Of a DNA stretch of 2,257 nucleotides, positions 1 to 2,257 are shown in pieces. Location of the stretch: the NCBI RefSeq assembly GCF_003334335.1, contig NZ_QOWQ01000091.1; one strand, given 5' to 3'. The notes below the pieces were generated by a model. The model saw only the letters and a program-made list of their open reading frames with translations. It did no database searches and had not been told where the DNA came from. Position 1 is the first letter of the stretch, and the number at the start of each line of letters is the position of its first letter. This stretch comes from Escherichia coli. Lineage in GTDB: Bacteria > Pseudomonadota > Gammaproteobacteria > Enterobacterales > Enterobacteriaceae. Both the position numbers and the translations under genes were made by a program.

Positions 1-468
1 CGTACCATTCAGAACTGGCAGGAACAGGGAATGCCCGTTCTGCGAGGCGGTGGCAAGGGTAATGAGGTGCTTTATGACTCTGCCGCCGTCATAAAATGGT
101 ATGCCGAAAGGGATGCTGAAATTGAGAACGAAAAGCTGCGCCGGGAGGTTGAAGAACTGCGGCAGGCCAGCGAGGCAGATCTCCAGCCAGGGACTATTGA
201 GTACGAACGCCATCGACTTACGCGTGCGCAGGCCGACGCACAGGAACTGAAGAATGCCAGAGACTCCGCTGAAGTGGTGGAAACCGCATTCTGTACTTTC
301 GTGTTGTCGCGGATCGCAGGTGAAATTGCCAGTATTCTCGACGGGATCCCCCTGTCGGTGCAGCGGCGTTTTCCGGAACTGGAAAACCGACATGTTGATT
401 TCCTGAAACGGGATATCATCAAAGCCATGAACAAAGCAGCCGCGCTGGATGAACTGATACCGTTATGA
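1..468 (+). CDS. nu1: Terminase small subunit Nu1 (lambda-like), 5' end outside window, 3' end truncated at a deletion junction
   Basis: Frame 1 is open from position 1 (cgt acc att cag aac tgg = RTIQNW), which precedes the ORF-track start at 31 and shows the gene enters from upstream. The translation ...IRTIQNWQEQGMPVLRGGGKGNEVLYDSAAVIKWYAERDAEIENEKLRREVEELRQASEADLQPGTIEYERHRLTRAQADAQELKNARDSAEVVETAFCTFVLSRIAGEIASILDGIPLSVQRRFPELENRHVDFLKRDIIKAMNKAAALDELIP matches lambda gpNu1 as I recall it, from about residue 17 to about residue 150. The last codons are ccg tta tga (P L stop, 460-468), whereas lambda Nu1 continues ...PGLLSEYIEQSG, so roughly 30 C-terminal residues are missing. Identity is from memory, not a search. 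Confidence 0.85.
   Translation, partial: RTIQNWQEQGMPVLRGGGKGNEVLYDSAAVIKWYAERDAEIENEKLRREVEELRQASEADLQPGTIEYERHRLTRAQADAQELKNARDSAEVVETAFCTFVLSRIAGEIASILDGIPLSVQRRFPELENRHVDFLKRDIIKAMNKAAALDELIPL
461..464. other. Deletion/recombination junction fusing nu1 (upstream) to an internal site of lom (downstream)
   Basis: Nu1-homologous sequence ends at ...gaactgatacc(g) at about 462. From about 463 the sequence ttatgagtttacggatacgctggggctggtgacg reads in a different frame (458 onward) as YRYEFTDTLGLVTSF, which is internal Lom sequence. The exact breakpoint is ambiguous by 1-2 nt (the cg at 461-462 could belong to either parent). Confidence 0.7.
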
Positions 469-895
469 GTTTACGGATACGCTGGGGCTGGTGACGTCAT
501 TCAGCTATGCAGGAGACAAGAATCGCCAGCTGACCCATTACAGCGATACCCGCTGGCATGAAGATTCCGTTCGTAACCGCTGGTTCAGCGTAATGGCGGG
601 GCCGTCTGTGCGCGTGAATGAATGGTTCAGCGCGTATGCGATGGCGGGTGTGGCTTACAGCCGTGTGTCGACTTTCTCCGGGGATTATCTCCGCGTAACT
701 GACAACAAGGGGAAAACGCACGACGTGCTGACCGGAAGTGATGACGGTCGCCACAGCAACACGTCTCTGGCGTGGGGAGCTGGCGTGCAGTTTAACCCGA
801 CCGAATCCGTGGCCATTGATATTGCTTATGAAGGCTCCGGCAGTGGCGACTGGCGCACTGACGGTTTCATCGTGGGTGTCGGTTATAAGTTCTGA
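463..895 (+). pseudogene. lom: 5'-truncated lom fragment (Ail/Lom-family outer-membrane beta-barrel protein) lacking signal peptide and native start; the ORF track reports it as 491..895 with a GTG start
   Basis: The frame opens after a TGA at 455-457 and reads YRYEFTDTLGLVTSFSYAGDKNRQLTHYSDTRWHEDSVRNRWFSVMAGPSVRVNEWFSAYAMAGVAYSRVSTFSGDYLRVTDNKGKTHDVLTGSDDGRHSNTSLAWGAGVQFNPTESVAIDIAYEGSGSGDWRTDGFIVGVGYKF, then stop TGA at 893-895. This matches the C-terminal ~150 residues of lambda Lom (about 206 aa in my recollection) with a single apparent difference (H where I recall R in QLT[R/H]YSDT). The N-terminal ~55 residues, including the signal peptide, are absent. The C-terminal aromatic residue (..GYKF) is typical of outer-membrane beta-barrels. 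The only in-frame start candidate is GTG at 491, with a weak GGGG 3 nt upstream. Confidence 0.85.
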
Positions 896-921
896 TTAGC
901 CAGGTAACACAGTGTTATGAC

Positions 922-948
922 AGCCCGCCGGTTCAGGCGGGCTTTTTT
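922..948 (+). terminator. Rho-independent (intrinsic) terminator downstream of lom
   Basis: Perfect 8-bp GC-rich inverted repeat, agcccgcc (922-929) and ggcgggct (936-943), with a 6-nt loop ggttca (930-935), followed immediately by a T-run (943-948, tttttt). It lies 27 nt after the lom stop codon. The opposite strand has no U-tract after the stem, so it is unidirectional for + strand transcripts. Confidence 0.75.
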
Positions 949-950
949 GT

Positions 951-955
951 GGGGT
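951..955 (+). promoter_or_regulatory. Putative Shine-Dalgarno sequence for stf
   Basis: ggggt located 4 nt upstream of the ATG at 960; a partial match to the GGAGGT consensus. Confidence 0.4.
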
Positions 956-959
956 GAAT

Positions 960-2257
960 ATGGCAGTAAAGATTTCAGGTGTACTGAAAGACGGCACAGG
1001 AAAACCGGTACAGAACTGCACAATCCAGCTGAAAGCAAAACGTAACAGCACCGCGGTGGTGGTGAACACGCTGGCCTCAGAAAATCCGGATGAAGCCGGG
1101 CGTTACAGCATGGACGTTGAGTACGGTCAGTACAGCGTTATTCTGTTGGTGGAAGGATTCCCGCCGTCACATGCCGGGACCATCACCGTGTATGAAGATT
1201 CCCGACCCGGTACGCTGAATGATTTTCTCGGTGCCATGACGGAGGATGATGCCCGTCCGGAGGCTCTGCGCCGTTTTGAACTGATGGTGGAAGAGGTGGC
1301 GCGTAACGCGTCCGCAGTGGCACAGAACACGGCAGCCGCGAAGAAGTCAGCCAGCGATGCCCGCACATCAGCCCGTGAGGCGGCAACCCATGCGACTGAT
1401 GCTGCAGGCTCAGCACGCGCAGCCAGCACGTCAGCCGGACAGGCCGCGTCGTCGGCTCAGTCAGCGTCTTCCAGCGCAGGAGCGGCATCAACAAAGGCCA
1501 GTGAAGCATCGAAAAGTGCTGCTGCTGCAGAGTCCTCAAAAAGCGCGGCAGCTACCAGTGCCGCTGCGGCGAAAACGTCAGAAACGAATGCGGCAGCGTC
1601 ACAACAATCAGCAGCCACTTCTGCATCCGCCGCGACCACGAAGGCGTCAGAAGCTGCCACCTCAGCCCGGGATGCGGCGGCCTCAAAAGAGGCGGCAAAA
1701 TCATCAGAAACGAGCGCAGCCTCGAGCGCCAGTAGTGCAGCCTCCTCGGCAACAGCGGCAGGAAATTCCGCGAAGGCGGCAAAAACGTCCGAGACGAACG
1801 CTAAGTCTTCTGAGACGGCAGCAGCACAGAGTGCCTCCGCAGCAGCAGACTCAAAAACAGCGGCTGCCTCATCTGCCAGCGCCGCGTCAACAAATGCCGG
1901 GCAGGCCTCAGCCAGTGCCACCGCTGCCGGAAAGTCGGCAGAAAGCGCCGCATCATCCGCTTCAACAGCCACAACGAAGGCTGGCGAAGCCACTGAACAG
2001 GCCACGGCAGCAGCGAGGTCAGCTTCCGCAGCGAAGACATCCGAAACGAACGCGAAAGCGTCGGAAACCAGCGCAGAATCCTCAAAAACGGCTGCCGCAT
2101 CGTCAGCCAGTTCGGCGGCGTCATCGGCATCATCGGCGTCTGCTTCAAAAGATGAGGCGACCAGACAGGCGTCAGCAGCGAAGGGCAGCGCCACGACGGC
2201 ATCCACGAAGGCGACAGAGGCAGCTGGCAGTGCGACGGCGGCAGCTCAGAGCAAAAG
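960..2257 (+). CDS. stf: Side tail fiber protein Stf (lambda-like), N-terminal conserved domain plus Ala/Ser/Thr-rich repeat region; 3' end beyond the window
   Basis: ATG at 960-962 opens a frame with no stop through the window end (432 complete codons), which is why the ORF track omits it. Translation begins MAVKISGVLKDGTGKPVQNCTIQLKAKRNSTAVVVNTLASENPDEAGRYSMDVEYGQYSVILLVEGFPPSHAGTITVYEDSRPGTLNDFLGAMTEDDARPEALRRFELMVEEVARNASAVAQNTAAAKKSA..., which closely matches the N-terminus of lambda Stf and related prophage side tail fibers as I recall them (the prophage tail fibre N-terminal domain). It is followed by a long low-complexity A/S/T/K/E tract with recurring K(T/S)SET(N/S)A motifs. Gene order lom then stf matches lambda. 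Confidence 0.9.
   Translation, partial: MAVKISGVLKDGTGKPVQNCTIQLKAKRNSTAVVVNTLASENPDEAGRYSMDVEYGQYSVILLVEGFPPSHAGTITVYEDSRPGTLNDFLGAMTEDDARPEALRRFELMVEEVARNASAVAQNTAAAKKSASDARTSAREAATHATDAAGSARAASTSAGQAASSAQSASSSAGAASTKASEASKSAAAAESSKSAAATSAAAAKTSETNAAASQQSAATSASAATTKASEAATSARDAAASKEAAKSSETSAASSASSAASSATAAGNSAKAAKTSETNAKSSETAAAQSASAAADSKTAAASSASAASTNAGQASASATAAGKSAESAASSASTATTKAGEATEQATAAARSASAAKTSETNAKASETSAESSKTAAASSASSAASSASSASASKDEATRQASAAKGSATTASTKATEAAGSATAAAQSK
1320..2257 (+). repeat. Degenerate in-frame coding repeats (Ala/Ser/Thr-rich tail-fiber repeat region) within stf
   Basis: The motif AAK-TSETN-A recurs at nt 1572-1589 (aaa acg tca gaa acg aat), 1782-1799 (aaa acg tcc gag acg aac) and 2034-2051 (aag aca tcc gaa acg aac), with KSSET variants at 1698-1712 and 1803-1817. 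Protein composition over this span is dominated by A, S, T, K, E. The repeats are imperfect and irregularly spaced (210 and 252 nt between the three KTSETN copies), not exact tandem copies. Confidence 0.6.

What the first reader, a model, noticed from the sequence alone, without database searches (positions are those of the whole stretch)
440..500. nu1 fused directly to an internal site of lom: footprint of a large deletion removing the prophage morphogenesis module
The sequence shows Nu1-homologous coding sequence switching, within 1-2 nt at about 462, to Lom-homologous sequence in a different reading frame. The nu1 frame therefore ends after one foreign codon (ccg tta tga), and lom lacks its first ~55 codons. 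In phage lambda, nu1 and lom are separated by the contiguous late genes A, W, B, C, Nu3, D, E, FI, FII, Z, U, V, G, T, H, M, L, K, I and J, roughly 18 kb in my recollection. A single deletion between these points would leave a prophage unable to package DNA or build heads and tails, while retaining stf (and probably the downstream tfa). This is the signature of a cryptic or defective lambdoid prophage. It is known biology rather than a new system, but it is the key structural event in the window, and the retained tail-fiber module could still be donated to superinfecting phages by recombination.
Basis: partly seen in the sequence, partly recalled or inferred. Interest (0 to 1): 0.55.

Follow-up and report, generated by a model that had tools for sequence, protein, structure and literature searches.

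The report
Deletion scar in a defective lambdoid prophage
The window shows the scar of an 18.5-kb deletion that removed all head and tail genes from a lambda-like prophage of E. coli, joining the truncated packaging gene nu1 to the middle of lom; this is an ordinary, well-understood form of prophage decay.

Summary
Window 1-462 is lambda nu1 (99.4% to J02459 239-700). Window 457-960 is the 3' 73% of a lom gene plus the lom-stf spacer (99% to phage BP-4795, 98% to phage ev243). The two alignments overlap by 6 nt, ATACCG at 457-462. Nu1 ends after 170 native codons plus Leu and TGA (466-468). The lom remnant lies in another frame and lacks its first 54 codons, including the signal peptide. In intact phages the two points are 18,452 bp (lambda) or 18,555 bp (ev243) apart, spanning A through J.

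No phage record has this adjacency. It occurs in 2 of 5,426 complete E. coli genomes, within one near-identical defective prophage at the lambda attachment site. That prophage keeps int, xis, cos, stf and tfa and has a second deletion (bet'|ren').

Other strains carry independent deletions of the same module, with different endpoints and 0-5 bp microhomology. A 17-site conversion tract in stf shows that the retained tail-fibre gene has recombined with other prophage alleles.

This is known biology, PGAP already flags the lom pseudogene in the carrier genomes, and interest is low.

The parts
1..468 (+). 3'-truncated nu1 (terminase small subunit; annotated nohD in the carrier genomes). The window starts at codon 17. 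Native sequence runs through codon 170 (ccg, 460-462), followed by one foreign Leu codon and TGA at 466-468. The last 11 of 181 codons are lost.
   Evidence: 99.4% identical to lambda 239-700 and 99.8% to ev099. ORF 31..468. PHROG 57 terminase small subunit, E = 7e-64. The carrier nohD product is 171 aa against lambda Nu1 at 181 aa.
457..462 (.). Deletion junction: the 6-nt microhomology ATACCG present in both parental sequences. The crossover lies somewhere within it.
   Evidence: Three-line alignments against the nu1 parents (lambda, ev099, ev243) and the lom parents (BP-4795, ev243). P(overlap of 6 or more) is about 0.0013-0.0018.
458..895 (+). lom pseudogene remnant: codons 55-199 plus the stop of a 199-codon Ail/Lom gene. 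It lacks the start codon, the signal peptide and the N-terminal part of the barrel, and it is out of frame with nu1.
   Evidence: 98.9% nt identity to BP-4795 lom and 97.9% to ev243 lom. PHROG 108 Lom matched at profile positions 55-199 of 199, E = 5.5e-81. PGAP annotates it as 'incomplete; missing N-terminus' in EC416 and PEC1009.
922..953 (+). Terminator-like GC-rich hairpin followed by a T run, in the native lom-stf spacer. It is a parental feature, not created by the deletion.
   Evidence: Consensus scan: 8-bp stem with 7 GC pairs, then TTTTTTGTGGG. The spacer is conserved in intact phages, since window 457-960 aligns at 99%.
960..2257 (+). 5' 1,298 nt of the side tail fibre gene stf. The frame is open to the end of the window. 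The gene is 987 codons long and intact in the carriers, followed by tfa.
   Evidence: Translation shows no stop. PHROG tail fibre families, E = 1.7e-131. Carrier annotation.
1355..1482 (+). Gene-conversion tract inside stf. It spans at least 128 bp and at most 297 bp (1266-1562). All 17 sites that distinguish the window from EC416/PEC1009 lie here, and all match the AZ155-type stf allele.
   Evidence: Differences listed. 100% matches to this stretch exist in other genomes. Three-way site table.

Best explanation
Positions 457-462 are the scar of a large deletion inside a lambda-like prophage integrated in an E. coli chromosome. The deletion is about 18.5 kb when measured on intact relatives.

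**How it formed (inferred).** A RecA-independent, short-homology illegitimate recombination event joined two direct ATACCG copies. The process could have been replication slippage or copy-choice, or end-joining by annealing after a break. One copy lay at codons 169-170 of nu1 and the other at codons 54-56 of lom. Everything between them was lost: the last 11 codons of nu1, genes A through J, and the first 54 codons of lom.

**Consequences (shown from sequence).**
- Nu1 is truncated to 170 native residues plus Leu.
- lom becomes a start-less, signal-peptide-less pseudogene in another frame.
- No head, tail or large-terminase genes remain, so the element cannot make particles.

**What is retained.** Within the window, stf keeps an open frame. 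In the two carrier genomes the element keeps cos, int, xis, a DLP12-like nin-Q-lysis region, a complete stf and tfa.

**Afterwards.** The stf gene has since exchanged a 128-297 bp patch with another prophage's stf allele by homologous recombination. The remnant therefore still takes part in the lambdoid gene pool, although which allele was the donor is unknown.
For: - **Breakpoint.** Base-level mapping with both parents.
- **Deleted genes.** Gene content of the deleted interval, from the lambda annotation.
- **Plausible single parent.** The intact phage ev243 carries both this nu1 allele and this lom allele, 18,555 bp apart.
- **Adjacency absent elsewhere.** It is missing from 50,697 phage records, the GTDB species representatives and metagenome contigs.
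- **Real and inherited.** The identical junction occurs in 2 of 5,426 complete E. coli genomes. Both lie in the same prophage between ybhC and ybhB-bioA. Their 42-kb loci are 99.92-99.97% identical apart from an IS2. This excludes an assembly artefact and points to one inherited event.
- **cos retained.** cosQ-cosN-cosB is 533/538 identical to lambda.
- **Non-random overlap.** P is about 0.0013-0.0018.
- **Common process.** Independent deletions of the same module, with 0-5 bp microhomology, occur in other prophages and at other chromosomal sites.
- **Conversion tract in stf.**
- **Experimental precedent.** Lambda acquires DNA from the cos-nu1 and stf-tfa remnants of DLP12, Rac and Qin (PMC3945230).
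Against: - The genome that the window comes from was not identified. The context (att site, cos, tfa, second deletion) is inferred from two genomes that are identical to the window except for the 17-site stf patch.
- A single-step event cannot be told apart from nested successive deletions, because only the last junction is visible. Some other strains clearly show two-step histories (NT1F10, LZHX12, ZY22049).
- The molecular pathway (slippage versus break repair) cannot be read from a scar.
- The direction of the stf conversion (window lineage versus EC416 lineage) is unresolved.
Confidence: 0.9

Rival explanations
1. The junction is the end product of two or more successive deletions rather than one 18.5-kb event. 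In that case the ATACCG microhomology reflects only the last step.
For: Other strains keep internal remnants that prove multi-step decay. NT1F10 has nu1-A'|B'|lom', LZHX12 has nu1'|J'|...lom, and ZY22049 has nu1'|I'|J'...lom.
Against: No remnant of any intervening gene is present here, and one event is more parsimonious. The practical interpretation (defective prophage, same gene losses) would not change.
Confidence: 0.2
2. The nu1 side and the lom-stf side come from two different lambdoid prophages, joined by illegitimate recombination between elements. This could be a chromosomal deletion between two prophages, or recombination with a superinfecting phage, rather than a deletion within one prophage.
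For: The nu1 allele is lambda-type (99.4-99.8%), whereas the lom allele is only 64% identical to lambda's and matches Stx/BP-4795-type phages. The prophage is visibly mosaic, with lambda-like int and exo next to a DLP12-like nin-Q-lysis region.
Against: Intact phages such as ev243 carry exactly this combination of nu1 and lom alleles in the normal order. In the carriers the element has the canonical int...cos-nu1...stf-tfa order within one att-lambda insertion, flanked by ybhC and ybhB.
Confidence: 0.06
3. The remnant is a domesticated, selected module rather than neutral debris. The host would keep cos plus C-terminally truncated Nu1, and/or stf-tfa, because they interfere with superinfecting phages. 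Truncated Nu1 could act as a terminase decoy that binds cosB but cannot recruit gpA. Alternatively, a tail-fibre protein could block receptors.
For: At least six independent deletions keep the 5' part of nu1 and stf-tfa. stf and tfa are intact ORFs in every carrier inspected. A cryptic-prophage Stf chimera has been reported to block T2 adsorption (PMC12529663).
Against: The set of deletions was found with a nu1+lom+stf query, so retention of these parts is built into the search. No expression or selection test was done. The exact junction is rare (2 of 5,426 genomes). The truncation is explained by the deletion alone.
Confidence: 0.05
4. Assembly or chimeric-read artefact joining two prophage regions.
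For: Prophage repeats are a common cause of misassembly, and E. coli genomes carry up to 13-18 copies of sequences similar to these.
Against: The identical junction is present in two independently sequenced complete genomes, one from a pig in Japan and one from a wild bird in Pakistan, with collinear flanks over 42 kb.
Confidence: 0.01

Closest known systems
Cryptic lambdoid prophages of E. coli K-12 (DLP12, Qin, Rac)
   Same: These are lambdoid prophages that have lost the head and tail genes. They keep a nu1 homologue (nohD, nohA) next to cos, and/or the side tail fibre genes stf-tfa. The carriers' element shares the DLP12-type ybcN-ninE-ybcO-rusA-ylcG-quuD-essD-rrrD-rzpD-bor-ybcV-ybcW-ylcI-nohD block. 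Lambda has been shown to recombine with these regions (PMC3945230).
   Different: This element is inserted at att-lambda (ybhC | ybhB-bioA) with a lambda-type int and xis, not at the DLP12 site. Its deletion endpoints (nu1 codon 170 | lom codon 55) are its own and occur in only 2 of 5,426 complete genomes.
Bacteriophage lambda and intact lambda-like phages (ev243, ev099, BP-4795)
   Same: nu1 is 99.4-99.8% identical to lambda and ev099. lom, the spacer and the 5' end of stf are 97-99% identical to ev243 and BP-4795. Gene order is collinear on both sides of the scar.
   Different: The 18.5 kb carrying A-J is missing. The lom allele is 64% nt identical to lambda's own lom. stf is the long 987-codon form with an Ala/Ser-rich repeat region.
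Short-homology (microhomology) dependent illegitimate recombination and deletion in E. coli
   Same: A deletion between two short direct repeats (6 nt) that retains one copy. The independent junctions in other strains show 0-5 nt. From established knowledge, this is the classical signature of RecA-independent deletion by slippage or by annealing after a break.
   Different: The mechanism is inferred from the scar only. No genetic dependence was or could be tested here.
L725-type Nu1-Lom in-frame fusion (at least 14 complete E. coli genomes)
   Same: It is also a nu1|lom deletion that removes A-J. Its left endpoint lies 3 bp from the window's (ev243 694 against 691-697).
   Different: It sits in a different prophage at a different chromosomal site (mdtA | ibsA-yegL), with no microhomology and a right endpoint 205 bp further into lom. 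It is in frame, giving a 244-aa chimera that PGAP calls an intact Ail/Lom protein.

Membership tests
Defective (cryptic) lambdoid prophage | Phage-derived genes in lambdoid order, integrated in a bacterial chromosome next to an integrase and att site | tested here: met
   In both carrier genomes the sequence lies in an element between ybhC and ybhB-bioA, ordered int-xis-exo...nin-Q-lysis-cos-nu1'-lom'-stf-tfa. The window's own source genome was not identified; it is identical to the carriers outside a 128-bp stf patch.
Defective (cryptic) lambdoid prophage | Loss of genes essential for particle production | tested here: met
   All of A, W, B, C, nu3, D, E, FI, FII, Z, U, V, G, T, H, M, L, K, I and J lie in the interval missing between window 462 and 463. 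The carriers also have a bet'|ren' junction.
Defective (cryptic) lambdoid prophage | Inability to produce infectious particles on induction | not testable with these tools
   Needs an induction and plaque assay on a carrier strain. It is inferred from the gene content.
Nu1 terminase small subunit (lambda gpNu1) | Sequence homology over the DNA-binding and self-assembly domains | tested here: met
   99.4% nt identity to lambda nu1. PHROG 57, E = 7e-64. The protein alignment shows 1 substitution (L132I) over residues 1-170.
Nu1 terminase small subunit (lambda gpNu1) | Complete C-terminus (the gpA-interacting end) and a partner large subunit gpA | tested here: not met
   The last 11 residues (GLLSEYIEQSG) are replaced by Leu and a stop. 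Gene A is deleted.
Ail/Lom/OmpX outer-membrane beta-barrel | Homology to the family profile | tested here: met
   PHROG 108 Lom, E = 5.5e-81. NCBIfam OmpX/Rck-type models are hit but below their curated cut-offs, as expected for a fragment.
Ail/Lom/OmpX outer-membrane beta-barrel | Complete ORF with start codon and signal peptide | tested here: not met
   Only profile positions 55-199 of 199 are present. The ev243 Lom N-terminus, MRKVCAAILSAAICLAVSGAPAWA..., is missing. There is no in-frame start before GTG at 491.
Microhomology-mediated (short-homology illegitimate) deletion | A short direct repeat present at both parental endpoints, with one copy retained at the junction | tested here: met
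   ATACCG lies at ev243 692-697 and 19247-19252, and one copy lies at window 457-462. Chance probability is about 0.0013-0.0018.
Microhomology-mediated (short-homology illegitimate) deletion | RecA independence, or dependence on replication or break repair | not testable with these tools
   Requires genetics.

The most novel reading that the evidence does not exclude
Loss of the lambdoid head-tail module may be recurrent and non-random, with preferred endpoints, and the conserved survivors may be kept by the host as an anti-phage or tail-fibre reservoir module. Two observations suggest preferred endpoints. The left endpoints of two independent events lie within 3 bp at the 3' end of nu1. The right endpoints of two others lie within 1-4 bp, at CCGTGTGTCGAC in lom. 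The conserved survivors are cos plus a Nu1 that lacks its gpA-binding tail, together with an intact stf-tfa.
Probability: 0.05. Interest if true: 0.5.

Novelty: already known. Interest (0 to 1): 0.12.

Why it matters
It matters little beyond annotation. The junction marks this att-lambda element as a grounded prophage that cannot form particles. It also explains why nohD is 171 codons long and why lom is a pseudogene. It could serve as a precise clonal marker for the lineage that carries it, because the exact junction is rare (2 of 5,426 complete genomes).

The side observations illustrate known principles with clean examples:
- Many independent deletions of the same module use only 0-6 bp of homology.
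- An in-frame Nu1-Lom chimera is mis-annotated as an intact Ail/Lom protein.
- A conversion tract in stf shows that remnants stay connected to the phage gene pool.

Tried and rejected
- **Lambda alone as parent for both sides.** The nu1 side works at 99.4%. Lambda's lom is too diverged: 64% nt identity, and blastn finds only window 768-1864 at 86.5%. I used BP-4795 and ev243 as lom parents instead.
- **Search for the source or other carriers of the exact junction.** There were 0 hits in the GTDB species representatives with a 37-nt pattern and 0 in metagenome contigs with a 29-nt pattern. The source genome stays unidentified, and no complete E. coli genome is 100% identical to the window (best 99.2%).
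- **Natural arrangement in some phage.** Rejected: none of 50,697 phage records has one place covering at least 80% of window 1-960.
- **Assembly artefact.** Rejected, because two independent complete genomes carry the junction.
- **Structured RNA or another hidden feature at the junction.** There were 0 Rfam hits at gathering threshold and no promoter-like sites. The only convincing terminator-like site is the native lom-stf hairpin. The minus-strand ORFs over the junction (72..434 and 497..754) overlap well-identified plus-strand genes and were not pursued.
- **L725-type fusion derived from the window type by a 208-bp secondary deletion.** Rejected, because it lies in a different prophage at a different chromosomal site.
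- **Endpoint hotspots.** Simulations give p of about 0.07 (left) and 0.14 (right). These tests are post hoc and rest on few events, so I make no claim.
- **'Noh and stf-tfa are always retained' as evidence of selection.** Rejected as circular, because the comparison set was retrieved with a nu1+lom+stf query.

Full report

Yes. The window's first ORF (31..468) ends ...ccg tta tga.

Megablast against 50,697 phage records splits window 1-960 into two blocks:
- Window 1-462 matches nu1 of lambda and its relatives. It aligns to J02459 239-700 at 99.4% and to ev099 at 99.8%.
- Window 457-960 matches the 3' part of lom, the lom-stf spacer and the stf start of many lambdoid and Stx phages, for example BP-4795 47326-47829 at 99.0%.

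No phage record has one place covering at least 80% of the query.

Three-line alignments show nu1 identity unbroken up to base 462 and lom identity unbroken from base 457. The six bases ATACCG (457-462) belong to both parents.

nu1 is read in frame 1 and lom in frame 2. The chimeric nu1 ORF therefore consists of 170 native codons, one foreign Leu codon and a TGA that is out-of-frame lom sequence. The carrier genomes' nohD product is 171 aa, against 181 aa for lambda Nu1.

The lom remnant (458-895) corresponds to codons 55-199 of the 199-codon allele. It matches positions 55-199 of 199 in the PHROG Lom profile. It lacks the start codon and the signal peptide MRKVCAAILSAAICLAVSGAPAWA.

**2. Size and content of the missing interval**

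- In lambda the two points are 700 and 19153, so 18,452 bp are missing.
- In the intact phage ev243, which carries both this nu1 allele and this lom allele, 18,555 bp are missing.

One correction applies. The lom allele here is only 64% nt / 51% aa identical to lambda's own lom, but 98-99% identical to that of BP-4795 and ev243. A BLASTN against lambda alone would therefore not show a high-identity lom block.

**3. Where it lives**

The whole window is found at 99.2% identity in two complete E. coli chromosomes. These are EC416 (pig, Japan) and PEC1009 (wild bird, Pakistan).

A 126-nt query centred on the junction is matched end to end only in those two of 5,426 genomes. In the other listed top hits the lom match stops exactly at window 457.

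In both genomes the sequence lies in a roughly 23-kb element between ybhC and ybhB-bioA, which is the lambda attachment region. The gene order is:
- int, xis, exo;
- a truncated recT/bet abutting a truncated ren, which marks a second large deletion that removed the immunity and replication region;
- a DLP12-like ybcN-ninE-ybcO-rusA-ylcG-quuD block and a porin gene;
- essD-rrrD-rzpD, bor, ybcV, ybcW, ylcI;
- nohD (the truncated nu1), the lom pseudogene, an intact 987-codon stf and an intact tfa.

PGAP already flags the lom fragment as 'incomplete; missing N-terminus'.

The two 42-kb loci are 99.92-99.97% identical apart from an IS2 in EC416. The deletion therefore happened once and was inherited.

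cosQ-cosN-cosB upstream of nohD is 533/538 identical to lambda.

The junction was not found in the GTDB species representatives or in metagenome contigs. The window's own source genome remains unidentified.

**4. How it arose (inference)**

The pattern is a 6-nt direct repeat at both parental endpoints, with one copy kept at the junction. This is the classical footprint of RecA-independent short-homology illegitimate recombination, either slippage/copy-choice or annealing after a break (established knowledge).

An overlap of 6 nt or more is expected at only about 0.13-0.18% of random nu1 x lom junctions.

The event must have occurred in the prophage state. From general knowledge of lambda packaging limits, a genome of about 30 kb lacking all morphogenetic genes could not propagate as a phage.

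Whether it was one step or the last of several nested deletions cannot be read from the scar.

**5. It is one of many such events**

Among genomes that matched most of the window, I mapped six other architectures onto ev243 coordinates:

| Strain | Junction(s), ev243 coordinates | Overlap |
|---|---|---|
| 52F4 | A' 953 \| lom 19296 | TAT |
| ET490 | A' 2157 \| lom 19454 | TGT |
| L725 | nu1 694 \| lom 19458 | none |
| NT1F10 | A' 877 \| B 3297, then B 3461 \| lom 19486 | CA at the first junction; none at the second |
| LZHX12 | nu1 644 \| J 15884, plus a further gap | GAAAC |
| ZY22049 | nu1 about 449-466 \| I 15005, plus further gaps | not resolved |

These lie in different prophages and at different chromosomal sites. 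Examples are a Qin-like context with cspI-gnsB-ydfO-nohA...pinQ, and mdtA | ibsA-yegL for L725. They are therefore independent events.

This set was retrieved with a nu1+lom+stf query, so the apparent rule that nu1 and stf-tfa survive is partly built into the search. It is not evidence for selection.

**6. The remnant is still recombining**

The window differs from EC416 and PEC1009 at 17 positions, all between 1355 and 1482. That stretch has 100% matches in the stf genes of other genomes.

I compared the window site by site with EC416 and with AZ155, whose stf sits in a J-lom-stf-tfa prophage segment with an intact lom. The window equals EC416 at all 126 other informative sites between 457 and 2257. 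It equals AZ155 at all 17 sites of the patch.

This is a gene-conversion tract of 128-297 bp, with direction unknown.

The process has been measured experimentally for lambda against the cos-nu1-A region of DLP12 and the stf-tfa regions of Rac and Qin (PMC3945230). A recent report also assigns an anti-T2 role to a cryptic-prophage Stf chimera (PMC12529663). That motivates the low-probability 'domesticated module' reading, but it was not tested here.

**7. Other checks**

- There were no Rfam families at gathering threshold.
- There were no promoter-like sites. The only strong terminator-like site is the native hairpin at 922-943, followed by a T run, in the lom-stf spacer.
- stf is open from 960 to the end of the window and becomes Ala/Ser-rich and repetitive after about residue 120.

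**8. Verdict**

Both the observation and the interpretation are supported, with three refinements:
- the junction is ambiguous over 6 nt;
- the lom allele is not lambda's own;
- the single-step history is not proven.

This is textbook prophage decay. It is already implicit in RefSeq annotation and closely parallels DLP12, Qin and Rac of K-12. Novelty: already known. Interest: low (0.12).

Noticed in passing
L009 2953-3687 (= L016 13953-14687), E. coli L725; the same type in at least 14 complete genomes (H35, H39-H51): An independent nu1|lom deletion (ev243 694|19458, no microhomology) is in frame. It gives a 244-aa Nu1(1-169)-Lom(C-terminal 75 aa) chimera, which PGAP annotates as an intact 'Ail/Lom family outer membrane beta-barrel protein'. 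This is probably an annotation artefact.
   Followed up: partly
window 457-462 compared with L009 3459/3460 and L010 4920-4922: Endpoints of independent deletions nearly coincide. The left ends of the window type (ev243 691-697) and the L725 type (694) lie within 3 bp. The right ends of L725 (19458) and ET490 (19454-19457) lie within 1-4 bp, at CCGTGTGTCGAC in lom. Simple simulations give p of about 0.07 and 0.14, post hoc and on few events, so this is only a hint of hotspots.
   Followed up: partly
window 1355-1482: All 17 differences from the two carrier genomes cluster here and match another stf allele (AZ155 type) exactly. This is a gene-conversion tract of 128-297 bp inside stf.
   Followed up: yes
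L001 10530-11098 (EC416) and L005 10531-11099 (PEC1009): A truncated recT/bet pseudogene abuts a truncated ren pseudogene. This marks a second large deletion in the same prophage, which removed the immunity and replication region. It is seen from annotation only, and the junction was not mapped.
   Followed up: no
L001 19464-19952 (upstream of nohD in EC416): A complete-looking cos region (cosQ, cosN GGGCGGCGACCT, cosB) is 533/538 identical to lambda. It is retained although the large terminase subunit gene is gone. A helper lambdoid phage could in principle cut here.
   Followed up: partly
L001 25742-26970: An IS2 insertion downstream of tfa is present in EC416 and absent in PEC1009. It is the only large difference between the two 42-kb loci.
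   Followed up: no
window about 1320-2257 (Stf residues about 120-432): This is a long Ala/Ser/Thr-rich region with recurring motifs such as AAKTSETNA. The stf gene is 987 codons in the carriers, far longer than the stf reading frame annotated in the lambda record (orf-401).
   Followed up: no
window 463-767: The lom allele is strongly diverged from lambda's own lom (64% nt, 51% aa) while nu1 is 99.4% lambda-like. The parent was therefore a mosaic lambdoid of the ev243, BP-4795 or Stx-phage type in this region.
   Followed up: yes
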